64,000 nucleotides of DNA from an uncultured Actinomycetota bacterium (lineage in GTDB: Bacteria; Actinomycetota; Actinomycetes; Mycobacteriales; Jatrophihabitantaceae): contig CAWKNB010000021.1 of the NCBI GenBank assembly GCA_963850835.1, positions 8,525 through 72,524 on the forward strand, read 5' to 3'. Under the pieces are notes generated by a model. The model saw only the letters and a list, made by a program, of their open reading frames with translations, had not been told where the DNA came from and made no database searches. How positions within the stretch are numbered: position 1 is the stretch's first letter; the number at the start of each line of letters is the position of its first letter. The translations under genes were made by a program, and so were the position numbers. Shown here piece after piece: positions 33,246 to 59,319 of the stretch.

Positions 33246-33264
33246 TCTATCGGTATGATAGACA
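33246..33264. promoter_or_regulatory. Palindromic operator copy A (TCTA-N9-TAGACA), overlapping a TATGAT -10
   Basis: TCTATCGGTATGATAGACA, in the divergent region between the carbonic anhydrase and ABC operons. Confidence 0.75.
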
Positions 33265-47770: not shown

Positions 47771-48674
47771 TCAGGCGCCGACTTCCCGGGGCCCGACGGG
47801 AATGTCGCCGCGCAGGGTGATGCGGTGCATGACGCGACGGAAGTCGGCGTAGTTGAAGTCGGCGTAGTGGGCGGTGCTGCGGTTGTCCCACATGACGACG
47901 TCACCGGGCTGCCACCGGTGCCGGACCATGTGTTCGGGCTTGGTGACGTGCGCAAAGAAGGCGTCGAGCAGACCGCGGCTCTCCGCGTCACTCACGTCGC
48001 GGATGCGGGTCGTGAAGCCGGGATTCACGAACAGTGAGCGTCGTCCTGTCTCAGGATGGACACGCACGACCGGATGAGGGACGGGCTTGAGCTGACGTAC
48101 GGGTTCGCCATCCCACTCGTTGCCCTCGCCGCCACGTCGCTGCTCGAGGTAGTCGGCGAACTCGCGGCTGCCGTCGTGTTCGGCGGTGAGTTGATCCGCG
48201 AGCTCACGCATCGCGGGATGCAGCGAGTCGTAGGCGGCCTCGAGGTCGACCCAGTTCGTGTTCCCGCCTACGGTCGGGATGTTCACGGCGCGCAGGATCG
48301 ATGCCATCGGTGGACGCGGCATGAACGTCACGTCGGTGTGCCACACGTCCGAGCGGCCGCCGTCGAGGCTGTCGAGTTCGTACACCTCGGGATGGTCGGG
48401 TGTCGCGCCCGCAACGACGGGATGCGACACCGTTACTTCACCGATGGCCCGGCCGAGTTCGATCTGGCTGTCGTCGTCGAGGTCCTGTGCGGAGAAGAAC
48501 AGCACCTTGTGCTCGGCGAGCAGATCGCGCAGCGCTCGCGGCATCGCCCTGCGCCACGACGTCACGTAGATCGACTCTGCGGATGCGGGCGGCGAACGAC
48601 GGGACCAGTCGCTCGATCGACCATGTCGACGCTCGGGTCGGTTCGCCGACATCGGTCGTGTGGATGGCGGTCAC
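47771..48674 (-). CDS. tauD: TauD/TfdA-family 2OG-dependent dioxygenase, frameshift ~48545
   Basis: EHKVLFF, WHTDV (HxD), HPVVRVHPETGR, WDNRSTAH and RVMHR. The N-terminus is in the 48438..48674 frame. Confidence 0.88.
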
Positions 48675-48690
48675 AACTCACCTCGCAGGT

Positions 48691-48719
48691 TTGACTTCGC
48701 TTATGTCTACAGAGATTAT
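48691..48719 (+). promoter_or_regulatory. Sigma70-type promoter TTGACT-N17-GATTAT, predicting a leaderless start at GTG 48727
   Basis: -35 at 48691-48696 and -10 at 48714-48719, with a 7-nt spacer to the GTG. Confidence 0.6.
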
Positions 48720-48725
48720 AGACAT
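48703..48725. promoter_or_regulatory. Palindromic operator copy C (perfect ATGTCTA-N9-TAGACAT)
   Basis: ATGTCTACAGAGATTATAGACAT overlaps the -10, in the divergent tauD / ABC region. Confidence 0.8.
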
Positions 48726-48899: not shown

Positions 48900-49992
48900 A
48901 TGCGCAACTCGTCAACCAGAGCGTTCGCCTCGTCCGGCCGAGCGAGACTGATGCAGGTGGCCGCGCTCGCCAGCACAGCGATGTTGGCGCTCGCGGGATG
49001 CAGCTCGTCCGGTTCGGGCGGCGGCGGCGCTGGTGGAGGTGGCGGAACCGAGGTCGGTGTCGGCTACTTCGAGAGCGCGACGATCGGTCCCGAGGTGCTC
49101 GTGGCCGGCAACGCCGACCTTGCCGGCAAGGTCGGCGGCAAGCTCAAGCTCACGCCGATCGACTCGGGCGTCACCGGTCTCGCGTCGCTGCGCGGCGGCG
49201 CCTTCCCGTTCGCGTCCGGCGTCGGCAACCCGCCGGTCACGGGCGCCATCGCCAACGACACCAAGCTCAAGGTGGTCTTCGCCGAGTACTACGACGCCGC
49301 CCAGCTCATCGTCGGGTCGAAGATCAAGGCAAACGCCGACCTGGCCGGCAAGACGGTCGGTGACCTCCAAGGCTCGTCCGAGGACTACGAGATCCGCGGT
49401 TGGTTGAAGACGCAGGGGCTCGACGGCAAGGTCAAGGTCGTCGGCTTCCCCAGCGAGCAGGCCGTCGAGGCCGCATACAAGTCCGGCCGCATCGACGGCG
49501 GTTACGTCGAGATCGCCCAGGCGCAGGAACTGTTGAAGAACACCGTCGAACCGCACCGTGGTCACGGCCCAGCAGATCGCCAAGCTCGGCTACGCCTCAC
49601 TCAACGTGTTGGTGGTCACCGACGCGTTCGCAAGCAAGAACAAGACGATCGTGCAGAACCTGGTGTGCCAGATGATCAAGGCGCAGGCGAAGGTCGCCGG
49701 TTCCGACGGCGACACCTACATCACCAATGGCTCCAAGCTCGTCGGCGCGACACCTGCGACGGCCATCGCCGCCACCAAGGGCCTGCCGTTCGTGTCGGCG
49801 CAGGACCAGCTGACGTGGTTCGGCACCTCCAAGGATGCGTCGAACAGCAAGATCGCCGACTCCTACGTCAAGACCGGTCAGTTCCTCAAGGAGCAGGGCC
49901 GCGTCACGAGCGTCCCGACGAAGGCACAGATCGGTGCGCACATCGACCCGACCTACGTTCAGCAGGCGGTCAAGGACGGCTGCGGCTCGTGA
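48900..49992 (+). CDS. Taurine/sulfonate ABC substrate-binding lipoprotein (TauA-like), frameshift ~49550
   Basis: Lipobox LAGC, LRGGAFPFASGVGNPP and DLAGKTVG, continuing in the 49558 frame. SD GGAGG. Confidence 0.82.
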
Positions 49993-50810
49993 CCGCGGCC
50001 CCGGAGGCGCCGAGTAGGTCGTCGGGCAACGCGCCGATCGCTGTCGAGATCAACGGCGTTCGCAAGCAGTTCGCCGGCCGCTCCCGACGGTCGGCGGGTC
50101 GCCTCGCGCTCGACGGGTTCGATCTGACCGTGCGCGAGGGCGAGTTCCTGTGCCTGCTCGGCCCGTCCGGGTGCGGCAAGTCGACGCTGCTCAACCTGCT
50201 CGCCGGCTTCTCCGATGCCGACGGCGGCGAGGTGCTGGTGGACGGGTCCCCGGTGCGCGGCCCGGGCACCGACCGGGGCGTGCTCTTCCAGACACCGATG
50301 CTCTTCCCGTGGCTCACCGCGCTGGACAACGTCCTCTACGGCCCGCGTGCCCGCCACGAGAGCGGCAAGCAGGTGCGCGATCGGGCGATCGAACTGCTCG
50401 AGACGGTGGGCCTCGGCAGTGCGGTGCACTCCTACCCGCACGAGCTGTCCGGCGGCATGCGGCACCGGGCCGCGTTCGCCCGGGTGCTGATCAACAAACC
50501 GAAGCTGCTGCTCATGGACGAGCCGTTCGGTGCGCTCGACGCGATCACCCGGGTGGCCATGCAGAGGTTCCTGCTCGATCTGTGGCAACGCGAACGGATC
50601 ACGATCGTGTTCGTCACCCACGACGTCGAGGAGGCCGCGCTGCTCGGCGACCGGGTGTGCGTCATGACCGGCAGCCCCGGACGTGCCCGGTTGCAGTTGA
50701 CCGTCGACCTGCCGCGCCCGCGCACCATCGAGACCACCGAGACGCTCGAGTTCGTGCGCATCAAGCGCCAGATCCGCGAGGCCCTCGAAAGCAGGGAGGA
50801 CGAGCGATGA
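49989..50810 (+). CDS. Taurine/sulfonate ABC ATP-binding protein (TauB-like)
   Basis: LGPSGCGKST, LFPWLTALDNV, ELSGGMRHR, LLMDEPFGALD and FVTHDVEEA; GTGA overlap. Confidence 0.9.
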   Translation: MTAAPEAPSRSSGNAPIAVEINGVRKQFAGRSRRSAGRLALDGFDLTVREGEFLCLLGPSGCGKSTLLNLLAGFSDADGGEVLVDGSPVRGPGTDRGVLFQTPMLFPWLTALDNVLYGPRARHESGKQVRDRAIELLETVGLGSAVHSYPHELSGGMRHRAAFARVLINKPKLLLMDEPFGALDAITRVAMQRFLLDLWQRERITIVFVTHDVEEAALLGDRVCVMTGSPGRARLQLTVDLPRPRTIETTETLEFVRIKRQIREALESREDER

Positions 50811-51662
50811 GTGACACCGACGTGCAGGAGGACTACAAGGTCGTCGTCGACGACGCGGACCTGGAGCTGGCCGAGCCGCGGCAGCGGCGCCGTTTCTCCT
50901 GGGCCCGCATCGGGTTCGGCGTGCTCGGCCTGCTGGTGTTCCTCGCGATCTGGCAGATCGCCGCCCTGATCAAGGACGACCCGGCGATCCTGCCGACGGT
51001 GCCGGCAACGGCAAAGACCTTCTGGCACTACCTGTTCAACGACTACCCGTCCGTCGGCGGACACACGCTTGTGGGGCACGCGCTCACGAGCACGCGCCGC
51101 ATCCTGACGGGCTGGGCCATCGGCGTGATCATCGGCGTGGCACTCGGCGGGGCCGATGGCCTCGCTACGCGTCCTGCGGTTCATGGTCGACCCGATCATC
51201 GAGCTCACCAGGCCGCTGCCGCCGCTGGCCTTTCTTCCGCTGCTCATCGTCTGGTTGGGCATCGACGACGCCCGAAGATCACGTTGATCGTCATCGGCGT
51301 CACCCCGATCATCACCATCGCGACGGTCACGGCGCTCGATGCCGTCCCACAGGAGCTGGTGCAGGCGAGTCGCAGCCTCGGGGCGTCGCCGCTCTGGTCG
51401 TTGCTGCACCGTGCGCCTGCGCGCCGCGTTACCGACGATCATCACGGGCATGCGCCTGGCCATGGGCGGCGCGTGGACCAGCATCGTGGCCGCCGAGCTC
51501 ATAGCCAGCACGAGCGGCCTGGGCTACCTGATCAATCAGGCCGGCCAGAACCTGCAGATGTCCCTGCTCGTCAGCGGCATCGTGGCAATCGCCATCATCG
51601 GGCTCGCGCTCGACAGCCTGTTGCGGCTGCTGCACCGCCGCACCGACCCCACCAGCCGGTAG
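50807..51662 (+). CDS. Taurine/sulfonate ABC permease (TauC/SsuC-like), about 3 frameshifts (~51150, ~51270, ~51410)
   Basis: Pieces STRRILTGW, PIIELTRPLPPLAFLPL, ASRSLGAS and GGAWTSIVAAELIASTSGLGY. Confidence 0.82.
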
Positions 51663-51666
51663 CAGC

Positions 51667-52795
51667 ATGTCTTTGCACCTGCACTGGTACCTGCCCACCA
51701 ACGGCGACGGGCGCGGGATCGTGGGCTCCGGCCGGGCCGGAGCGGGCGGTGTCGGCGAGACCTACGCCGTGGAACGGCAGCCGACCATCGACTACCTCGG
51801 CCAGATCGCCCGCTCGGTCGAGCAACTCGGCTTCGAGGCGGTGCTCACGCCGACCGGTAGTTGGTGCGAGGACGCGTGGCTCACGACGGCGGCGCTGTCG
51901 CAGGTGACCAAACGCTTGAAGTTCCTCGTCGCGTTCCGACCGGGTTTCATCAGCCCGACGCTGGCCGCGCAGCAGGCCGCAGACCTTCCAGCGGATCAGC
52001 GGGGGACGGCTGCTGCTCAACGTGGTCACCGGCGGCGATCCCATCGAACAGCGGCGCTTCGGCGACTTCCTGGCCCATGACGAGCGGTACGCGCGGACCG
52101 CCGAGTTCCTCCAGGTGTTGCGCGGCGCGAGCAGCGGTACGCCGTTCGACTTCACCGGGGACCATTTCCGGGTCGAGGGTGCGACCGCCGCGCTGAGCCC
52201 CTGGGGGATGCCGCCGCTGTTCTTCGGCGGCGCGAGCCCGGCTGCGGAGAACGTCGCCGCGAGCCACGTCGACGTCTACCTCGCCTGGGGTGAGACACCG
52301 CCGCAGATCAAACAACGGCTGGACCGGATGCGCGAAAAAGCCGCAACGGCGGGCCGCGAGCTCACCTTCGGGATTCGCCTGCACGTGCTCAGCCGGGACA
52401 CCGCGAAGCAGGCCTGGGCCGAGGCGCAACGCATGGTCGATGATCTCGACCCGGCCCGGGTCGCCGAGGTGCAGGCGCAACTCGCCGCGATGGACTCGGT
52501 GGGGCAACGCCGCATGCAGACGCTGCACAGCGGCGGGCGCCGCGACGAACTGGAGATCTACCCCAACCTGTGGGCCGGCTACGGGCTGGTCCGCGGCGGG
52601 GCCGGCACCGCGCTCGTCGGCAGCCACGAGGAGGTCGCCGAGCGACTCGAGGAATATCACGCCCTCGGCATCGATCACGCCATCCTGTCGGGTCAGCCGC
52701 ATCTGGAGGAGGCGTACTGGTTCGGCGAGGGTCCCGGCCGGTTGCTTCGCCAGCAGGGTGTCGTGGCCGCCGAGGCGAGGTCAGCGGCCGGGTAA
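51667..52795 (+). CDS. ssuD: Alkanesulfonate monooxygenase-like LLM enzyme, frameshift ~51980
   Basis: HWYLPTNGD, LTPTGSWCEDAW, FLVAFRPG, LNVVTGGD, LEIYPNLWAG, GGAGTALVGSH and EEAYWFGE. Confidence 0.85.
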
Positions 52796-54055
52796 CCCGG
52801 CTGCCTGGTGAATCGCCGGGCCGGCGTAGAGGGCGGCGTGCCCCGACGCCACACGTCCGGCGCGGACCTCGTCCACCGCTGCCCGGAGGGCCTCGACCAG
52901 ATCGGGCATCACCCGCGCATGCAGCGGCGAGAGCATGACATGCAAACCGCCCGGCTGCCGGTTGAGCCACCAGCGACGATCTTCGAGCGCGTCACCAACC
53001 GCCGCCATGTCGAGGGTGTCACTCGTGAACTGCAGCACCGGGCCGTCCGGCGGCGCGGTCAGGCGCAGGCCGTCGATCGTTTCGACGGCGCCGACCAACG
53101 CGCGCCGCGCGGCCAGCACCGCTTGTGCCTTGGCGCGGTAGCCGGCATGCCCGTGATACGTCAGCGCCGCCCATGCTCCGGCAATCGGCGGCGCGGGGCG
53201 CGTGCCCGCTGGTGTCGGGGTGGCGTACAGACCACCACCCCATACCTGGTCGTCGAACCAGATCCGTTTGCCTGCGAGCTCCGGCGTGCCGAACGCGATG
53301 ATCGAAGCGCCCTTGAAGCTGTATCCGTACTTGTGTACGTCGGCGCTGATACTCGTCACTCCGGGGACGCGGAAGTCCCAGGGCGGCACCGGTTCACCGA
53401 GCTCCTCGAAGAACGGCAGCACCAACCCACCCAGACACGCGTCCACATGACACAAGATGTCGCGTTCGAGCGCGAGCCGGGCGACCGGCCCGACCGGATC
53501 GACCACGCCGAACGGGTAGCACGGTGCGCTGGCGACGAGCAGCGCTGTGTCCGCTGTGATCGCCGCCGCCAGGGCCTCGGCGTTCAAGCGTTTGTCGGCG
53601 CCGACAGGTACCCGGACCTGCTCGATGTCGAGCAGGTGACACGCTTTGGCGAACGCCGGATGGGCCGTGGTCGCGGTGATGATCTGCGGGTACTCGATCC
53701 CACGCTCGTGGGCGACGGTGCGCGCGACCGCGACCGCGACGAAGATGGACTCGGTGCCGCCGCTGGTGAGCCCGGCCGCGCCCGCCGGACCGTGGAGCAA
53801 CCCGCTCACCATGTCGGTCGCCTGGATCTCCAACCGGGCAAGGCTCGGGAACTTCATCGGATTCAGGGCGTTCTCGGCGAGGTACTCATTGCTCACCTGC
53901 CGGAGCAGATCCTCGAGGACCGGATCGTCCGGCGGGAAGATCAGGCTGAAGATGCGGCCCTGCCGCCACGGCGCGTCGCCATCACGGTTGGCCCGCAGCC
54001 GCGCCATGACCTCGCCTGGCTCGGTGCCGTCCTCGGGCAACCCGTGGTCGCTCAC
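52781..54055 (-). CDS. Group II PLP enzyme, sphingosine-1-phosphate-lyase-like
   Basis: TSGGTESI, AHPAFAKA, PCYPFGVVDP, CHVDACLGG, SISADVHKYGY (PLP Lys) and WGGGLYATPT.AGTRP; GTGA overlap with the upstream DsbA-fold gene. Confidence 0.85.
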   Translation of the reverse strand: MSDHGLPEDGTEPGEVMARLRANRDGDAPWRQGRIFSLIFPPDDPVLEDLLRQVSNEYLAENALNPMKFPSLARLEIQATDMVSGLLHGPAGAAGLTSGGTESIFVAVAVARTVAHERGIEYPQIITATTAHPAFAKACHLLDIEQVRVPVGADKRLNAEALAAAITADTALLVASAPCYPFGVVDPVGPVARLALERDILCHVDACLGGLVLPFFEELGEPVPPWDFRVPGVTSISADVHKYGYSFKGASIIAFGTPELAGKRIWFDDQVWGGGLYATPTPAGTRPAPPIAGAWAALTYHGHAGYRAKAQAVLAARRALVGAVETIDGLRLTAPPDGPVLQFTSDTLDMAAVGDALEDRRWWLNRQPGGLHVMLSPLHARVMPDLVEALRAAVDEVRAGRVASGHAALYAGPAIHQAAGLPGR

Positions 54056-54660
54056 CGCGGGATGGTCGTGCGTTTGAACTCGTTGAGGTCGGTCCAGCCG
54101 GACAACAGGTCCACGACCCGTTCGACGGTCCGGATCGATGCGGCCGCGGCGGAACCGAGCGGGGCACGGTCCATCAGCCGGACGAACACGGCCTGGTCGC
54201 CGGCAACGAAGGTGGGCACGCCCCACAAGCTGTGCGACTCGGCGTGGCGCACGTGCTCGGCCCGGACCCGGCGGAGGGCTTCGCCGGAATCGACCAGGGC
54301 GAAGACCGGCCCGGACGGCACATCGTTGCCCTCGAGCACGCGCGCGACGGCGGCTCGGTCGTCGAGCTGCTTGGCCTCGTCGTGGCGCAACGCGAACAGC
54401 GCACGGTGCACGGCAGCGAACTCGTCGGGGTGCTCATCGCGTACCACGACACCGACCTGCAGCGCGAAAATGCCGGTGTCCTGCTCGGGCTTGTCCCAGA
54501 CATCGGGTTGGCCCTCCTCGACATGAACCTGCCCCAACGAGAAGGGCACGAAGCCGACCTGCCAGTCGGCTCCAGCAGCCAGACCGGTGAGAACGTGTTC
54601 GTGCGCGTTGCGCGCGAACGGGCAGCGGTAGTCCCAAGTGACGTCGAACGACGTTGTCAT
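54052..54660 (-). CDS. DsbA/thioredoxin-fold protein, single Cys (CPFA)
   Basis: VTWDYRCPFA and WGVPTF (cis-Pro loop). Confidence 0.8.
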   Translation of the reverse strand: MTTSFDVTWDYRCPFARNAHEHVLTGLAAGADWQVGFVPFSLGQVHVEEGQPDVWDKPEQDTGIFALQVGVVVRDEHPDEFAAVHRALFALRHDEAKQLDDRAAVARVLEGNDVPSGPVFALVDSGEALRRVRAEHVRHAESHSLWGVPTFVAGDQAVFVRLMDRAPLGSAAAASIRTVERVVDLLSGWTDLNEFKRTTIPR

Positions 54661-54694
54661 GCCAACCCAACCCAACGCTCATGCACAGATATTC

Positions 54695-54711
54695 CCTACT
54701 TGTCCAGTAGA
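54695..54711. promoter_or_regulatory. Palindromic operator copy D (CCTA-N9-TAGA)
   Basis: CCTACTTGTCCAGTAGA, upstream of the dsbA-like gene. Confidence 0.55.
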
Positions 54712-54764
54712 GATTACGAAGACCGCCGCGTCAACAAGCGAGCAGGCGGTCCACGGGTTATATT

Positions 54765-54783
54765 CCTATCAATTTTATAGACA
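54765..54783. promoter_or_regulatory. Palindromic operator copy E (CCTA-N9-TAGACA)
   Basis: CCTATCAATTTTATAGACA, immediately before the SD AGGAG of the FAD/TPR gene. Confidence 0.75.
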
Positions 54784-54796
54784 TAGGAGCACACCG

Positions 54797-57466
54797 ATGA
54801 GCACTCGGGCCGTCATCGCGGTGGTCGGTGCGGGCGCGAGCGGCACGCTCGCCGCGGCGCACCTTGCCCGCGAGGCAGCGAGCCGTCAGCGGGCGCTCGA
54901 CATCGTGGTGTTCGACTCCCAGCCGGCCGGACGTGGCGTCGCCTACTCGACGACGGATCCGCGACATCGACTCAATGTCGCGGCCAAAGGGATGAGCGCG
55001 TGGCCGGACGACGGTGACCACTTCCTGCGCTGGCTGCGCCGGCACGTGGCGGCGGACTTTCCCGTAGGCGGCTTCGCGCCTCGCATTCACTACGCGCAAT
55101 ACCTCGCCGACGTGCTCGACACGGCCGCCCGCGCATCCGCGCAGGTCCATCTCGACATCGTGCGCGCGCGAGTGACCGACGTGACCGTGATCGGCCGCCG
55201 GCTCCGCATCTCGCTCGATGACGGCCGCAGTCGGCCGGCAGACGCCGTCGTGCTGGCACTCGGGCACGGTGAACCCGCCACCGGTTGGGTGCCGGCCGAA
55301 CTCCGCCGCAGTCCACGGTTCGTGGCCGACCCGTGGCGCACGACTCCGGACATCCAACTCGAGTTCGGCGACGACGTCGTCGTTGTCGGCGCTGGCCTCA
55401 CCGCGCTCGACCTGGCCCAGCAATGGGGACGCTCCGGAACTCGCGTGCACGTCGTGTCACGGCACGGAATGCTGCCGTTGCCGCACGCGACGTCACCGGC
55501 ATCGGCCGTACCCTCCGTCGACGCTCTGGCACCGACCGTTGCCGCAGCACGGCGATCGGTGTTCACCGCCATCAGGAAGGCCGACGGAGACTGGCGACGC
55601 GTCGTCGACGGACTGCGACCGGTCACTGCCGATACGTGGGCCGGCTGGGCCGAGGGCGAACGGCGGACGTTCCTGCGCGCGGCGTGTCGTCGCTGGGATC
55701 GAGTCCGGCATCGCATCGATCCTGCCCTGCATGCCTGGGTCGAGCAGCGCCGTGCCGACGGGTCCCTGGTCGTGCACGACGGCACAGTGGCCGCTGCCTC
55801 GACCGACGGCGACCACCCAGTGCTCAGCTTGACCGACGGGTCCGTCATCCGCGCCGCGGCGGTATTGAACTGCACCGGCAGTTGCACCAGCATCGACCGC
55901 AGTTCGGACCCGCTGATGATGAACCTGCTGACCAATGGGCTCGTCACCTCCGGCCCGTTGGATCTGGGCCTGGCGACCGACGGACGAGGAAGACTGCGCG
56001 GCAGCGGCGGCGCCGCGCCCATGTGGACATTGGGTCCGCTGCGGCGCGGACAACTGTGGGAAAGCACTGCAGTTCCGGAGATCCGCGCTCAAGCACAGCA
56101 GCTGGCGGTCGATGTGCTCACCGCGCTGCCGCCCGAGACCGTGCGGCGCCGCCCGCGCGATCCCTACGGGCTGCCGATCAGCGCATCGTCGTCGGCCGCT
56201 GCGCAGTACGTGAAAGCGCTGCACCGCATCCTTCGGGTGCAGTCCGGCGCCGAGACCCTCGTGGCAGATGCGGTCCAGGCGGACCCGCAGTTCGCGCTCG
56301 GCCATGCGGTCCTCGCGCTGCTCGGCACCGAATGGGGTGCTGACGTCGATGCGACAGAATCGCTCGCGGCCGCACAAGCGCTCAGCGGTAACGCCGACGA
56401 GCGCGAGCGTCGATTCATCGAGGTTGCTGCCGCTCGAGTGAACGCTCCGGGACAGGCCTCGGCCGCTGCCTTGATCGCTTACCTGCAGTCATATCCCGAA
56501 GACGCGCTCGCGGTCAGTCTGGCGGTACCGACGATCGCTTTCGGCGGAGCCACGGACGTACCGACCGAGGCGTGGGCGCTCGTCGACACGTTGCAACCCG
56601 CCTACGGTGACGACTGGTGGTATCTCGGGCTGCTCGCCTTCACCCGTCAGGAACAGGAACGCTTCGCCGAGGCCGGCGAACTTGCCGCGCGTGCACTCGC
56701 ACTCGAACCAGCGTCAGGGCACGCAGTCCATGCGCAGGCCCACGTGCACTATGAAACCGGCAAACACCGCGCCGGGCTGGCCTGGCTGGACGCATGGATC
56801 GCAACCTGCGGCGCCAGGGCGTCGCACCTGGCTCACTTCTCCTGGCACGCCGCACTGCACGAGCTTGCGCTCGACGACGCAGCGGCGGCGGTGGCGCGCT
56901 ATCGAGCGCAGTTGGCGCCGCCGGCGGCCAGCGGGATGCGTGCACTGGTCGATTCGGCGTCGCTCGTGTGGCGGATCCGGATGACCGGGGCCGGCAGGAT
57001 CGCCAACGTCGCCGACGTGCTCGACAGCGTGCCGGAGCGACTCCTGATCGCGCCACCCACACCGTTCGCCGCGCTGCACGCTGCAATCGCGCTCGCCGGC
57101 GCCGGCGATTGCCACCGACTGGTGGCGTTGCGTCGCTATGCCCGCACGCGCCCCGGTGCGCTGGCCGACATCGTCGCGCCGTTCGCCGATGCGTTGAGCG
57201 ATCTGGTTCACGACGACCCACAAGGCGCGCTGGAGACCCTGCTCGGTCTCGGTCCGGCCGAGGCGTGGGTGCCACTCGGCGGCAGCGCCGCCCAACGTGA
57301 GATCGTGCAAGAGACGCTGATCCATTGCGCAGCTGCCGCCGGTCGCCTCGACCTCGCTGCCGACATCCTGGCGAGCCGCATCGATCGCCGCAACTCCCCC
57401 GCGGACCGTCGTCGGCGCGAGCAGCTCGTGCACACAGCGACTCCGCAAACCCGTGACGCCGGCTGA
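54797..57466 (+). CDS. FAD/NAD(P)-binding protein (YdhS-like) fused to a TTC38-like TPR domain
   Basis: Two Rossmann motifs (VVGAGASG, VVGAGLTALD), GRGVAYST and LGPLRRGQLWESTAVPEIR, then HAVHAQAHVHYE, HFSWHAAL, LVDSASLVWR and GGSAAQRE. One uninterrupted ORF. Confidence 0.85.
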   Translation: MSTRAVIAVVGAGASGTLAAAHLAREAASRQRALDIVVFDSQPAGRGVAYSTTDPRHRLNVAAKGMSAWPDDGDHFLRWLRRHVAADFPVGGFAPRIHYAQYLADVLDTAARASAQVHLDIVRARVTDVTVIGRRLRISLDDGRSRPADAVVLALGHGEPATGWVPAELRRSPRFVADPWRTTPDIQLEFGDDVVVVGAGLTALDLAQQWGRSGTRVHVVSRHGMLPLPHATSPASAVPSVDALAPTVAAARRSVFTAIRKADGDWRRVVDGLRPVTADTWAGWAEGERRTFLRAACRRWDRVRHRIDPALHAWVEQRRADGSLVVHDGTVAAASTDGDHPVLSLTDGSVIRAAAVLNCTGSCTSIDRSSDPLMMNLLTNGLVTSGPLDLGLATDGRGRLRGSGGAAPMWTLGPLRRGQLWESTAVPEIRAQAQQLAVDVLTALPPETVRRRPRDPYGLPISASSSAAAQYVKALHRILRVQSGAETLVADAVQADPQFALGHAVLALLGTEWGADVDATESLAAAQALSGNADERERRFIEVAAARVNAPGQASAAALIAYLQSYPEDALAVSLAVPTIAFGGATDVPTEAWALVDTLQPAYGDDWWYLGLLAFTRQEQERFAEAGELAARALALEPASGHAVHAQAHVHYETGKHRAGLAWLDAWIATCGARASHLAHFSWHAALHELALDDAAAAVARYRAQLAPPAASGMRALVDSASLVWRIRMTGAGRIANVADVLDSVPERLLIAPPTPFAALHAAIALAGAGDCHRLVALRRYARTRPGALADIVAPFADALSDLVHDDPQGALETLLGLGPAEAWVPLGGSAAQREIVQETLIHCAAAAGRLDLAADILASRIDRRNSPADRRRREQLVHTATPQTRDAG

Positions 57467-57500: not shown

Positions 57501-58270
57501 TCAGGCGGTTCGAGCGCCGGTCATGATCGCGACTGCGTCGTCCATCGAATGTGTTGACGGCGAGATCACCGCGGCACGACGACCGAGCCGCTGGACGTGG
57601 ATGCGGTCGGCCAGTTCGAACACACTTGGCATGTCGTGGCTGATCAACACGATCGGCAGGCCGTTCTCGCGCAGCCGCTTGATCAGGTCGACGACCTGGC
57701 CGGACTCGCGCACGCCGAGCGCCGCCGTCGGCTCGTCGAGGATGACGACCTTGCTGCCGAACGCGGCCGCGCGCGCGACGGCGACGGCCTGGCGCTGCCC
57801 GCCGGACAGCGTCTCGACCGCCTGGGTGATGTCCTGCAGCGTGGCGATGCCGAGAGCCTTGACCTGCTCCTGCGCCTGCTCGCGCATGCGTGGCGGTGTC
57901 GAGGAAGCGGAACGCTCGCCCGAGCGGGTCCGCTGCGGCGGATCTCCCGGCCGAGGTACATGTTCGAGGCGATGTCGAGCGCCGGCGCGACGGCGAGGGT
58001 CTGGTAGACGGTCTCGATCCCTGCGGCCTTCGCCTGCTGCGGCGTGCGGAAGCGCACCGGCTCGCCGTCGAGCAGGATCTCGCCCTCATCCGGGACGGCC
58101 GCCCCGGACAGGCACTTGATCAGCGACGACTTGCCGGCGCCGTTGTCGCCGATGACGGCGAGGATCTCGCCCGGCAGCAGTTCGAAGTCGGCGCCGCGCA
58201 GCGCCGCCACCCGTCCGTAGAACTGCCAGAGGCCTTTCGCCTGCAGCACCGGGGTCTTCTCGTCGCTCAT
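57501..58270 (-). CDS. Sugar ABC ATP-binding protein (FrcA-like), frameshifted
   Basis: IGDNGAGKSSL, ETVYQTLA, LSGGQRQ and ILDEPTAALG, spread over frames. Confidence 0.85.
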
Positions 58271-59319
58271 CTGCGTACCCTCCGGATCCACTGGTCGACG
58301 CTCACCGCGGCGATCACCAGCAGCCCCTCCGCGAGTTGCTGGTACAGGTCGGGCACGCCGGCCAGGGCGAGCCCGTTCTGGAACACCTGCACGATCAGCG
58401 CGCCGAAGAGCGTGCCGATGACGACGCCGCGGCCGCCGAACAGGCTGATGCCGCCGATGACCGCGGCGGTGATGCTGTCGAGGTTGAGCGTTGAGGAGAT
58501 GTTGGTACTGGCGTCGCCGACCCGGCCGATCTGCACCCAGGCGGCGATGCCGTAGACGACGCCCGCGGTGACGTAGACGCTGAAGAGCACCCGCGTGGTC
58601 GGGATGCCCATCAGCCGGGAGGCTTCCTGGTCGTCGCCGACCGCGTAGACGTGCTTGCCCCACGCGGTTCGTGCCCAGCGCCACGCCGACGAGGACGTAG
58701 AGCACGAGCATGATCAGCACGCCGGTGGTGATGTGGAACGTCGCCGAACTTGATGATCTTGCCGGTCCACAGCAGCAAGCTGCCGCTGCGCCGGGGTGAT
58801 GGTCTGGCCGTTCGCGTACTTCAACCCGACGGCGGTGAACACCCCGAGCGTGCCCAGTGTGGCGATGAACGGGGGGATCGCGCAGTTTCGTGACGAGCGG
58901 CGCCGTTGACCAGACCGGTCACGAGCGCCGCGATCAGCCCGATGATGATCGCGAGCGCCGCCGGGACGCCGGAGTTGACGGCGAGACCCGCCATCACCAT
59001 CTGCGAGAGGATCATCGCGGCGCCGACCGAAAGGTCGATGCCGGCGGTGAGGATGATGAGGCTCTGCCCGAGCGCGAGCAGCCCGATGACCGCGACTTCC
59101 TGGAGCATGATCGACAGGTTGGCCAGCTGCACGAACCGGGTGTTGATGCACGCGAACACCACGGCGGCGACGATCAGCACCGCGAGCGGACCGAGGGCCG
59201 GGTGTGCGTGCAGCTGCGCCTGGATCGGATTCTGCCGACGCTGCGGATGCGTCGTCCGGCTCGGCGGGAGAATCGTCCGGCGCGCCGGCAGTCTCTGACG
59301 AGGTGACGCTGGTAGTCAT
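58267..59319 (-). CDS. Sugar ABC permease (FrcC-like), frameshifted
   Basis: ILTAGIDLSVG, PPFIATLG, HVYAVGDD and LDSITAAVIGGISLFGGRG, spread over frames. Confidence 0.85.

What the first reader, a model, noticed from the sequence alone, without database searches (positions are those of the whole stretch)
52781..54711. S1P-lyase-like PLP enzyme under sulfur control: a possible sulfonolipid (capnine) lyase yielding taurine
Seen: an SPL-type motif set (GGTES, HPAFAKA, HVDACLGG, ADVHKYGY, WGGGLYATPT.AGTRP). It is coupled by a GTGA overlap to a single-Cys DsbA-fold gene, sits behind operator D/E, and abuts the tauABC-ssuD operon with tauD. Known: S1P lyase cleaves C2-C3 of sphingoid-1-phosphates to phosphoethanolamine plus fatty aldehyde, and capnine is the 1-sulfonate analogue made by Bacteroidetes. 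Inference: the same cleavage of capnine would release taurine, the TauD substrate, giving a route for scavenging sulfur from neighbours' sulfonolipids that I do not know to be described. An alternative is cysteate or cysteine-sulfinate decarboxylation to taurine or hypotaurine.
Basis: inference. Interest (0 to 1): 0.82.

Follow-up and report, generated by a model that had tools for sequence, protein, structure and literature searches.

The report
S1P-lyase relative in sulfonate-scavenging cluster
A soil actinobacterium keeps a soluble relative of the enzyme that cuts sphingosine-1-phosphate beside its genes for taking sulfur out of taurine-like sulfonates, a pairing conserved in related genera that suggests an undescribed step feeding some sulfonate into that pathway, with the substrate still unknown.

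Summary
Window 52781-54055 (-) encodes an intact 424-aa PLP enzyme. Its nearest solved relatives are all sphingosine-1-phosphate lyases (human SPL E 4.5e-76; MfnA 2e-22; GAD 1e-12). Its GTG start overlaps the TGA of a one-cysteine DsbA-like gene. A 17-bp palindrome precedes the pair and recurs before tauA and one other operon. The gene ends tail-to-tail against tauABC-ssuD, with tauD beyond.

In 9 of 16 loci holding orthologues (at least 58% identity; Jatrophihabitans, Frankia, Motilibacter, MAGs), an ssuD-like gene lies directly next to the SPL-like gene, in three different arrangements. None of 55 loci with more distant homologues shows this. The DsbA-like partner is not conserved. Five or six sister lineages pair the gene with an amidase and/or a gamma-glutamyltransferase instead.

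The protein keeps the SPL catalytic set but changes the head-group pocket (A103L, Y105F/Y, H129N, PHG to P[FY]G) and gains an invariant Arg.

My reading is an SPL-family enzyme recruited to sulfonate-sulfur scavenging, probably yielding taurine. Retro-aldol cleavage of capnine-type amino-hydroxy-sulfonates (about 0.3) and cysteate decarboxylation (about 0.25) cannot be separated with these tools. I found no paper describing either. Other notes of this scan report SPL-like genes beside taurine genes in unrelated phyla.

The parts
52781..54055 (-). SPL-like PLP enzyme, 424 aa. The GTG start overlaps the stop of the upstream gene. PLP Lys is K242. It is cytoplasmic, with no TM segment or signal peptide.
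   Evidence: phmmer against PDB gives human SPL 259.6 bits and StSPL 246.2 bits, against MfnA 82.8 bits. The top 23 Foldseek hits are all S1P lyases.
54052..54660 (-). DsbA-like thioredoxin-fold protein, 202 aa, with a single Cys (C13 in CPFA). It is the first gene of the two-gene operon.
   Evidence: Pfam PF01323 scores 28.2 bits. The AF2 model (pLDDT 87.6) is nearest to DR2335, Rv2466c, FrnE, HCCA isomerase and GST kappa.
54765..54781 (.). 17-bp palindromic operator-like site, CCTATCAATTTTATAGA, shared by the DsbA-SPL operon and the divergent FAD gene.
54693..54713 (-). Second, degenerate palindrome TCTCTAC-N7-GTAGGGA, lying between the operator and the DsbA-like start codon.
   Evidence: Read from the sequence. 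It has 3 mismatches to the pattern and resembles the L001 tauA/tauD site.
54797..57466 (+). Divergent 889-aa gene. It has an FAD/NAD(P)-binding N-half (PF13454) and a roughly 600-aa C-half without a confident family.
51667..52795 (+). ssuD-like FMNH2-dependent monooxygenase, convergent with the SPL-like gene with a 15-nt overlap of the ends. The frame changes near 51975.
   Evidence: Intact orthologues score 430-447 bits on TIGR03565, whose cut-off is 518.
48900..51660 (+). tauA-like binding protein, tauB ATPase and tauC permease. tauA changes frame near 49545 and tauC between about 51150 and 51400.
48706..48722 (.). Perfect operator copy TCTACAGAGATTATAGA in the tauD/tauA divergent promoter region.
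   Evidence: Related sites occur in the same intergenic region of L001, L008 and L009.
47771..48652 (-). TauD-family Fe(II)/2-oxoglutarate dioxygenase.
   Evidence: E. coli TauD scores 208 bits and AtsK 173 bits.

Best explanation
The gene encodes a soluble, cytoplasmic member of the sphingosine-1-phosphate-lyase family that has been recruited as an accessory enzyme of a sulfonate-sulfur scavenging module (TauABC-type importer, SsuD-like monooxygenase, TauD-like dioxygenase). In this genome it is expressed from its own promoter under the same palindromic operator as the tau operon.

The mechanism I favour is as follows. The amino group of a 2-amino-3-hydroxyalkane-1-sulfonate (capnine-type sulfono-sphingoid, or a shorter analogue) forms the external aldimine on K242. 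The anionic head group sits in the remodelled pocket (N62, K248, T285, L38, N65, F40). The C2-C3 bond is cut by a retro-aldol step as in S1P lyase. This releases an aldehyde and taurine, and the TauD-like enzyme then converts the taurine to sulfite.

What is shown: family membership, intact catalytic residues, the altered pocket, the conserved ssuD/tau linkage and the shared operator sequence. What is inferred: co-regulation by sulfur supply, the reaction type, the sulfonate head group, and taurine as the product.

I put about 0.7 on the general role (part of sulfonate-sulfur scavenging). The figure given as confidence is for the specific lyase mechanism.
For: Family:
- phmmer against PDB gives nine S1P lyases at E 4.5e-76 to 8e-63. 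MfnA is at 2e-22 and GAD at 1e-12.
- An AF2 model (pLDDT 84) gives S1P lyases as Foldseek hits 1-23.

Residues listed for S1P lyases in Table 3 of PMC6148460 that are kept:
- G168/T169, H201, D274, C276, H310, K311, the SPL-specific K317 (K248), N126 and the substrate-entry Y482 (Y410).
- The channel motif W-x-GG-[LIV]-Y-x-[ST]-PT-x-AG-[ST]-RP is also kept. The roughly 40%-identity Streptomyces-type clade has lost it.

Head-group pocket changed: A103L, Y105F (Y or F within the clade, 92:28), H129N, PHG to P[FY]G, and an extra invariant R366.

Linkage:
- An ssuD-like gene lies directly adjacent in 9 of 16 orthologue loci.
- The arrangements are convergent (window, L008, L065, L009, L001, L002, L041), co-directional tauD-ssuD-SPL with 4-nt overlaps (Motilibacter, L005), and SPL followed by ssuD (L006).
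- The count is 0 of 55 loci for homologues at 38-55% identity.
- In the tree, the tau-linked lineages occupy three branches of one clade with 100/100 support.

Operator: the only three good sites in 4.97 Mb precede this operon, tauA and a third operon of the island.

Sister lineages couple the gene to an amidase-signature hydrolase (L010, L043, L045, L062) or a GGT (L003, L010). This would fit N-acylated substrates.

Rat S1P lyase tolerates a head-group change to phosphonate, as reported in PMC6148460.
Against: - No assay exists.
- The tau-type loci have no deacylase, lipid transporter or fatty-aldehyde dehydrogenase. The importer is a TauA/SsuA-type small-solute system.
- A ThrC-like PLP enzyme recurs in two of these loci (L005, L065). 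This hints at amino-acid-type sulfonates such as cysteate or homocysteate.
- The protein lacks the roughly 65 N-terminal residues of StSPL.
- The pocket signature is shared by Acidimicrobiales, Myxococcota and Chloroflexota homologues that have no tau/ssu linkage. It is therefore not specific to the sulfonate context.
- Positions A103 and H129 also vary in a bona fide S1P lyase: T and Q in the Burkholderia enzyme.
- The new invariant Arg could bind a carboxylate, which would favour a decarboxylase.
- The local TauD-like protein has V, S and E where E. coli TauD has Y73, N95 and S158. I recall those three as the amine ligands, from memory.
- The orthologous loci are related genomes, so the 9 of 16 are not independent events. 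Three distinct arrangements are the safer count.
Confidence: 0.3

Rival explanations
1. It is an amino-acid decarboxylase built on the SPL scaffold. L-cysteate (or cysteine sulfinate, or homocysteate), imported by the TauABC-like system, is decarboxylated to taurine (or hypotaurine, or homotaurine). The TauD-like or SsuD-like enzyme then desulfonates the product.
For: - The SPL family is nested in the group II decarboxylases (PF00282 at 41.9 bits; MfnA model at 183 bits).
- This reading explains every part of the module without needing lipid uptake or deacylation.
- The side-chain sulfonate would occupy the same anion pocket as in the lyase reading, and the product is the same.
- ThrC-like PLP enzymes, whose relatives include cysteate synthase (from my own knowledge), recur in L005 and L065.
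- An invariant Arg (R366) absent from S1P lyases could hold a carboxylate.
- A 43%-identity homologue sits next to an amino-acid permease.
Against: - The protein is far closer to lyases (260 bits) than to any decarboxylase (83 bits or less).
- It stays below the equivalog cut-offs for MfnA (183 against 299) and GAD (80 against 380).
- It keeps the SPL-specific K317, the entry Tyr and the channel motif.
- The amidase and GGT partners of the sister lineages are not explained.
- I found no paper on a bacterial cysteate decarboxylase of this family.
Confidence: 0.25
2. It acts on a different anionic 2-amino compound linked to sulfur scavenging. One example is a 2-amino-3-hydroxyalkyl O-sulfate, isosteric with S1P, giving ethanolamine O-sulfate for an AtsK-like dioxygenase. 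Another is a gamma-glutamyl or N-acyl amine released by the amidase or GGT partners. It might also process an amine or aldehyde product of TauD or SsuD.
For: - The local TauD-like protein scores nearly as well on the sulfate-ester dioxygenase AtsK (173 bits) as on TauD (208 bits), and it differs at the recalled amine-ligand positions.
- The pocket has lost two His and one Tyr hydroxyl, as might suit a mono-anion.
- The partners are varied: amidase, GGT, class-III aminotransferase, rhodanese, flavin reductase and TauE.
Against: No specific candidate is favoured by the data. Natural amino-hydroxyalkyl sulfates are rare, to my knowledge. The reading is diffuse and hard to test.
Confidence: 0.2
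3. It is an ordinary sphingoid-base-1-phosphate lyase that degrades scavenged sphingolipid. Its position beside ssuD is inherited synteny without a functional link.
For: - About 35-38% identity to active bacterial and human S1P lyases, with all PLP and catalytic residues present.
- StSPL and the Burkholderia enzymes are active although their hosts make no sphingolipids (PMC5234717).
- H129 and A103 also vary in the Burkholderia enzyme.
Against: - The linkage survives three rearrangements, including an overlapping tauD-ssuD-SPL operon.
- The operator is shared with tauA.
- Y105, invariant in the five characterised enzymes of Table 3, is freely F or Y here.
- No sphingosine kinase or phosphoethanolamine-using gene was seen in the loci.
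Confidence: 0.1

Closest known systems
Sphingosine-1-phosphate lyase (EC 4.1.2.27): StSPL of Symbiobacterium thermophilum, human SGPL1, yeast Dpl1p, Burkholderia pseudomallei S1PL2021
   Same: - Fold-type I PLP enzyme of the group II decarboxylase subfamily, with about 35-38% identity over about 400 residues.
- The same PLP cup, Schiff-base Lys, second Lys six residues on (K317), Asn126, Cys276, entry Tyr482 and GG[LI]Y channel motif.
- Soluble, like the bacterial enzymes.
   Different: - Three of the five substrate-phosphate pocket residues differ (A103L, Y105F/Y, H129N).
- The His of the PHG motif is F or Y.
- There is an extra invariant Arg (R366).
- The N-terminus is about 65 residues shorter than in StSPL.
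- The genomic context is sulfonate desulfonation rather than lipid metabolism or host manipulation.
MfnA (tyrosine/aspartate decarboxylase) and GAD/CSAD group II decarboxylases
   Same: Same superfamily and fold. CSAD makes taurine from cysteate or hypotaurine from cysteine sulfinate, which is the product proposed here.
   Different: The sequence relationship is much weaker (83 bits or less against 260). The protein is below the NCBIfam equivalog cut-offs. It carries the SPL-specific K317 and channel motif.
E. coli tauABCD and ssuEADCB sulfate-starvation systems
   Same: An SBP-dependent sulfonate importer plus a TauD-type dioxygenase and an SsuD-type FMNH2 monooxygenase, with flavin reductases nearby (45.3-46.4 kb).
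   Different: - The two systems are merged into one tauABC-ssuD operon.
- All three enzyme and binding-protein models score below the equivalog cut-offs.
- The module carries an SPL-like PLP enzyme, which the E. coli systems lack.
Rv2466c (mycothiol-dependent DsbA-like reductase), DR2335 and FrnE of Deinococcus, HCCA isomerase, GST kappa
   Same: The upstream partner has the cytoplasmic DsbA-like fold (Foldseek TM 0.66-0.79), with its active-site Cys at the N-end of helix 1.
   Different: It has only one Cys (CPFA rather than CxxC) and no sequence-level match in the PDB. It is linked to the SPL-like gene only in this lineage.

Membership tests
Sphingosine-1-phosphate lyase family (EC 4.1.2.27) | Sequence and fold closest to characterised S1P lyases | tested here: met
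   E values run from 4.5e-76 to 8e-63 for nine S1P lyases. Foldseek ranks 1-23 are all S1P lyases.
Sphingosine-1-phosphate lyase family (EC 4.1.2.27) | PLP-binding set: G168, T169, H201, D274, C276, H310, K311, S353 | tested here: met
   The query residues are G100, T101, H132, D205, C207, H241 and K242. S353 is T285, a conservative change.
Sphingosine-1-phosphate lyase family (EC 4.1.2.27) | Substrate-phosphate pocket Y105, H129 (Q in Burkholderia), A103 (T), N126, K317 (Table 3 of PMC6148460) | tested here: not met
   N62 and K248 are kept. Y105 is F40, H129 is N65 and A103 is L38. Across 120 clade members L and N are invariant, and the Tyr position is Y in 92 and F in 28.
Sphingosine-1-phosphate lyase family (EC 4.1.2.27) | Substrate-entry Tyr (Y482) and channel motif GG[LI]Y[AF]SPT | tested here: met
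   The query has Y410 and WGGGLYATPT.
Sphingosine-1-phosphate lyase family (EC 4.1.2.27) | Retro-aldol cleavage of sphingoid base 1-phosphates | not testable with these tools
   This needs an enzyme assay.
Group II PLP decarboxylases (MfnA, GAD, CSAD) | Reaches the curated equivalog score of a decarboxylase model | tested here: not met
   MfnA TIGR03812 scores 183.3 against 299.4, and GAD TIGR01788 scores 80.5 against 380.4. The general Pfam domain PF00282 is met (41.9 against 27).
DsbA-like thioredoxin-fold oxidoreductases (partner gene) | PF01323 domain and DsbA-like fold | tested here: met
DsbA-like thioredoxin-fold oxidoreductases (partner gene) | CxxC redox pair | tested here: not met
   The motif is CPFA and there is one Cys in the whole protein. 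C13 is invariant in 30 homologues.
SsuD alkanesulfonate monooxygenase (neighbour) | Reaches the equivalog score of TIGR03565 | tested here: not met
   Intact orthologues of the neighbour score 429-447 against 518.2, so they are SsuD-like but not certified equivalogs.
TauD taurine dioxygenase (neighbour) | Fe/2OG and sulfonate ligands, and the equivalog score | tested here: inconclusive
   H70, H99, D101, V102, H255, R266 and R270 are kept. The J. fulvus orthologue scores 275 against 313. The positions I recall as amine ligands (Y73, N95, S158) are V, S and E.

The most novel reading that the evidence does not exclude
A subfamily of S1P-lyase-like enzymes cleaves sulfono-sphingoid bases (capnine and relatives) made by Bacteroidota. 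No kinase is needed, because the sulfonate replaces the phosphate. The cleavage releases taurine, which TauD-type or other taurine pathways then turn into sulfite. This would be a route by which actinobacteria, and according to other notes of this scan unrelated anaerobes too, mine their neighbours' membrane sulfonolipids for sulfur.
Probability: 0.27. Interest if true: 0.82.

Novelty: new variant of a known kind. Interest (0 to 1): 0.62.

Why it matters
Sulfonates make up a large share of soil organic sulfur, yet the known aerobic scavenging enzymes (TauD, SsuD, MsuD, SfnG) cover only simple sulfonates. No route is described for freeing sulfur from sulfonolipids, and the aerobic assimilatory route from cysteate is poorly defined.

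A conserved PLP enzyme of the S1P-lyase family built into the tau/ssu module marks a missing step that can be tested directly with a purified protein. It would also give a first physiological role to the many soluble bacterial S1P-lyase homologues found in organisms that have no sphingolipids.

Finally, it defines a broad subfamily with a remodelled head-group pocket (L / Y-F / N / N plus an extra Arg), found in at least five phyla.

Tried and rejected
- GC3-based gene calling gave misleading ORFs until homologues were laid on by tblastn. That step exposed frame changes in tauA, tauC and ssuD.
- Exact and direct-repeat searches did not find the operator. AT-rich window scanning did.
- The Y105F change looked like a marker of the sulfonate context, but Y and F alternate without regard to context.
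- The DsbA-like partner is not a conserved partner.
- Homologues at 38-55% identity were surveyed for tau/ssu, amidase, GGT, TauE and aminotransferase genes. None showed the linkage.
- The amidase partner matches only generic amidase models.
- Literature searches for SPL-like enzymes in sulfonate use, for capnine degradation and for bacterial cysteate decarboxylase gave nothing relevant.
- I tried to learn the role of MfnA R371, to judge the new Arg, and failed.
- No sigma-70-type promoter was predicted in the 54600-54850 gap.
- The AF2 models could only be used for fold search.
Full report
**The sequence**

Its GTG start (54055-54053) overlaps the TGA (54054-54052) of a 202-aa gene at 54052-54660. 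That gene has a single cysteine, in the sequence W-D-Y-R-C-P-F-A.

A 136-nt gap separates this two-gene operon from a divergent 889-aa gene (54797-57466). That gene has an FAD/NAD(P)-binding N-half (PF13454, 136 bits) and a long C-half without a family.

Downstream, the stop of the PLP gene overlaps by 15 nt the stop of a convergent ssuD-like gene. That gene ends a tauA-tauB-tauC-ssuD operon (48900-52795), and tauD (47771-48652) diverges from tauA.

Further upstream lie three luciferase-like monooxygenases, an FMN reductase, a flavin reductase, a Xi-type GST and a nitroreductase. The whole 41-57 kb stretch therefore looks like an organosulfur-scavenging island.

**What the PLP protein is**

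- Pfam gives only the general Pyridoxal_deC domain (41.9 bits). NCBIfam puts MfnA first at 183 bits, well under its 299-bit cut-off, and GAD at 80 bits.
- Against the PDB, the nine best sequences are all sphingosine-1-phosphate lyases: human 4.5e-76, StSPL 5e-72, Burkholderia 1e-65, yeast 1e-64, Aspergillus 8e-63. MfnA follows at 2e-22 and GAD at 1e-12.
- An AlphaFold model built on 39 homologues (mean pLDDT 84) gives S1P lyases as Foldseek ranks 1-23 (E 1e-34 to 5e-25). MfnA comes next.

**Active-site residues**

I used the StSPL alignment and the residue table of the Nat Prod Rep review (PMC6148460, Table 3).

| Role | StSPL residue | Query residue |
|---|---|---|
| PLP cup | G168, T169 | G100, T101 |
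| PLP stacking | H201 | H132 |
| PLP pyridine N | D274 | D205 |
| PLP region | C276 | C207 |
| PLP cup | H310 | H241 |
| Schiff-base Lys | K311 | K242 |
| PLP phosphate | S353 | T285 |
| Second Lys, SPL-specific (its yeast equivalent is essential) | K317 | K248 |
| Head-group pocket | N126 | N62 |
| Substrate entry | Y482 | Y410 |
| Head-group pocket | A103 | L38 (changed) |
| Head-group pocket | Y105 | F40 (changed) |
| Head-group pocket | H129 | N65 (changed) |

The channel motif is kept: WGGGLYATPT, against WQGGIYASPT in human SPL and WPGGLYFSPT in StSPL.

In 120 close homologues L38 and N65 are invariant, while the Tyr position is Y in 92 and F in 28. That split shows no relation to genomic context. 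Two more clade-wide differences appeared. The His of the PHG motif is F or Y, and an invariant Arg (R366) sits where S1P lyases have Q, G or A.

This signature is not limited to the window's relatives. Homologues from Acidimicrobiales, Myxococcota, Chloroflexota, Hydrogenedentota and a proteobacterial MAG share it. A separate Streptomyces-type clade at about 40% identity has Y/Y/N/D, and has lost both the channel motif and the entry Tyr.

The changes are real, but only suggestive. A103 and H129 also vary in the active Burkholderia enzyme, where they are T and Q.

**Is the sulfur context more than chance?**

I looked at 16 distinct loci holding orthologues at 58-81% identity.

- An ssuD-like gene is the immediate neighbour in nine of them.
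- In seven the arrangement is convergent, with tauCBA and tauD beyond: the window, L008, L065, L009/L066, J. fulvus L001, Frankia sp. AgB1.9 L002, and L041.
- In Motilibacter peucedani the order is tauD-ssuD-SPL, co-directional with 4-nt overlaps. A divergent tauABC is followed by a ThrC-like gene.
- In L006 the order is SPL then ssuD, 20 nt apart.
- The other lineages of the same clade pair the gene with an amidase-signature hydrolase (L010, L043, L045, L062), with a gamma-glutamyltransferase (L003, L010), or with neither (L061).
- None of 55 loci with homologues at 38-55% identity has ssuD, tauD or tauABC within 10 kb.

A maximum-likelihood tree places the tau-linked lineages on three branches, and the amidase-linked lineages on two branches, of one clade with 100/100 support. 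That clade is separate from the human and StSPL sequences.

The genomes are related, so the independent evidence is the three arrangements rather than nine counts. Even so, an overlapping tauD-ssuD-SPL operon is strong evidence of a shared function.

**Regulation**

Three AT-rich promoter regions in the window carry a 17-bp palindrome of the form TCTAYM-N5-KATAGA:

| Position | Sequence | Location |
|---|---|---|
| 33246-33262 | TCTATCGGTATGATAGA | before a third operon of the island |
| 48706-48722 | TCTACAGAGATTATAGA | between tauD and tauA |
| 54765-54781 | CCTATCAATTTTATAGA | before the DsbA-SPL operon |

In the whole 4.97-Mb assembly these are the only sites with at most one mismatch in an AT-rich context. 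Related sites lie in the tauA/tauD gap of L001, L008 and L009.

Co-regulation with the tau operon is therefore a fair inference. Control by sulfur supply is assumed from the gene content, not shown. The regulator was not identified, and no canonical promoter was predicted.

**The DsbA-like partner**

It just reaches Pfam DSBA (28.2 bits) and has no sequence match in the PDB. Its model (pLDDT 88) is closest to DR2335, to the mycothiol-dependent reductase Rv2466c, and to FrnE, HCCA isomerase and GST kappa.

The family is very conserved, at 70-78% identity across Saccharopolyspora, Pseudonocardia, Frankia and Nocardiaceae. It is not tied to the SPL-like gene. In Pseudonocardia it diverges from three monooxygenases and a rhodanese. 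A DsbA-like/HCCA-isomerase protein was found only in the sulfur-limited culture of Rhodococcus qingshengii (PMC8557817).

It is probably a one-cysteine thiol transferase or reductase of the sulfur-limitation response, joined to the PLP gene only in this lineage and in L008.

**Mechanism**

Both leading readings yield taurine on the cofactor.

The lyase reading is retro-aldol cleavage of a 2-amino-3-hydroxyalkane-1-sulfonate such as capnine. It is favoured by the close homology to lyases, by the retained K317, entry Tyr and channel motif, and by the amidase partners of sister lineages.

The decarboxylase reading is L-cysteate to taurine. It is favoured by parsimony, because a small-solute importer is present and no lipid-handling genes are. 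The ThrC-like neighbours and the gained Arg also point this way.

A third possibility is another anionic amine, for example an O-sulfate ester. An ordinary S1P lyase with inherited synteny cannot be excluded either. My estimates are:

| Reading | Probability |
|---|---|
| Retro-aldol lyase on capnine-type sulfonates | about 0.3 |
| Cysteate-type decarboxylase | 0.25 |
| Another anionic amine substrate | 0.2 |
| Ordinary S1P lyase, synteny only | 0.1 |
| Unassigned | the remainder |

I put about 0.7 on the broader statement that the enzyme belongs to sulfonate-sulfur scavenging.

**Novelty**

Full-text searches found no paper that links SPL-like enzymes to sulfonate use, to capnine degradation, or to a bacterial cysteate decarboxylase of this family.

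Other notes of this scan report SPL-like genes beside taurine, TauE or xsc genes in unrelated phyla. They are unchecked leads. I did not test them, and they do not count as support, but the scan has met this pattern before on other DNA.

**Limits**

There are no enzyme data and no expression data.

tauA, tauC and ssuD each change frame once in this assembly, while tauB, tauD, the PLP gene, the DsbA-like gene and the 889-aa gene are intact. The related contig L008 is fragmented in the same way. I therefore suspect assembly indels, but pseudogenes cannot be ruled out.

Noticed in passing
window 49545, about 51150-51400, about 51975; also 57600-58300: tauA, tauC, ssuD and a ribose-type ABC ATPase each switch reading frame once when compared with intact orthologues, while neighbouring genes are intact. 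These are either assembly indels (the related contig L008 is fragmented in the same way) or recent pseudogenes.
   Followed up: partly
window 33246-33262, 48706-48722, 54765-54781: The palindrome TCTAYM-N5-KATAGA has only these three good copies in the 4.97-Mb assembly, all within 21.5 kb, so the regulon seems confined to this island. The regulator gene was not identified. A possibly related site, CACTATCTGCTATAGATAG, lies at G000 contig C17 near 48562.
   Followed up: partly
window 47771-48652 (-): The TauD-like protein keeps the Fe, 2-oxoglutarate and sulfonate ligands of E. coli TauD. It has V, S and E at the positions I recall as the taurine-amine ligands (Y73, N95, S158), and it scores nearly as well on the sulfate-ester dioxygenase AtsK. 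Its substrate may not be taurine itself.
   Followed up: partly
L005:1513-2688 (-) and L065:2-481 (+): A ThrC-like (threonine-synthase family, PRK08197) PLP enzyme recurs inside tau/SPL loci of Motilibacter and a Jatrophihabitans MAG. It could be a desulfonating or sulfite-handling enzyme acting on cysteate or homocysteate-type substrates.
   Followed up: no
L067-L088 (Acidimicrobiales loci): The homologues at 50-55% identity sit in a conserved co-directional string: P450, flavin reductase, SPL-like, MobA-like nucleotidyltransferase, rhodanese, RNase D. Its function is unknown, and it is a second, looser association of this subfamily with sulfur-related genes.
   Followed up: partly
L024-L040 (Streptomyces-type and other actinobacterial genomes): A separate, widespread SPL-like clade at about 40% identity has Tyr at A103 and Asp at H129, and has lost the channel motif and the entry Tyr. 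It probably has a different, possibly cationic, substrate. In all, 92 of 401 sampled genomes of the class carry some SPL-like gene.
   Followed up: no
window 54052-54660 (-); L064: The one-cysteine DsbA-like protein is 70-78% identical across distant actinobacterial genera, so it is more conserved than its neighbours. In Pseudonocardia it lies beside three luciferase-like monooxygenases and a rhodanese. It is an uncharacterised, probably mycothiol-linked protein of the sulfur-limitation response.
   Followed up: partly
window 54797-57466 (+): The divergent 889-aa protein has a YdhS-like FAD/NAD(P)-binding N-half. About 600 further residues have no family hit, apart from a faint TPR-like signal at 620-667. 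It shares the operator with the DsbA-SPL operon.
   Followed up: no
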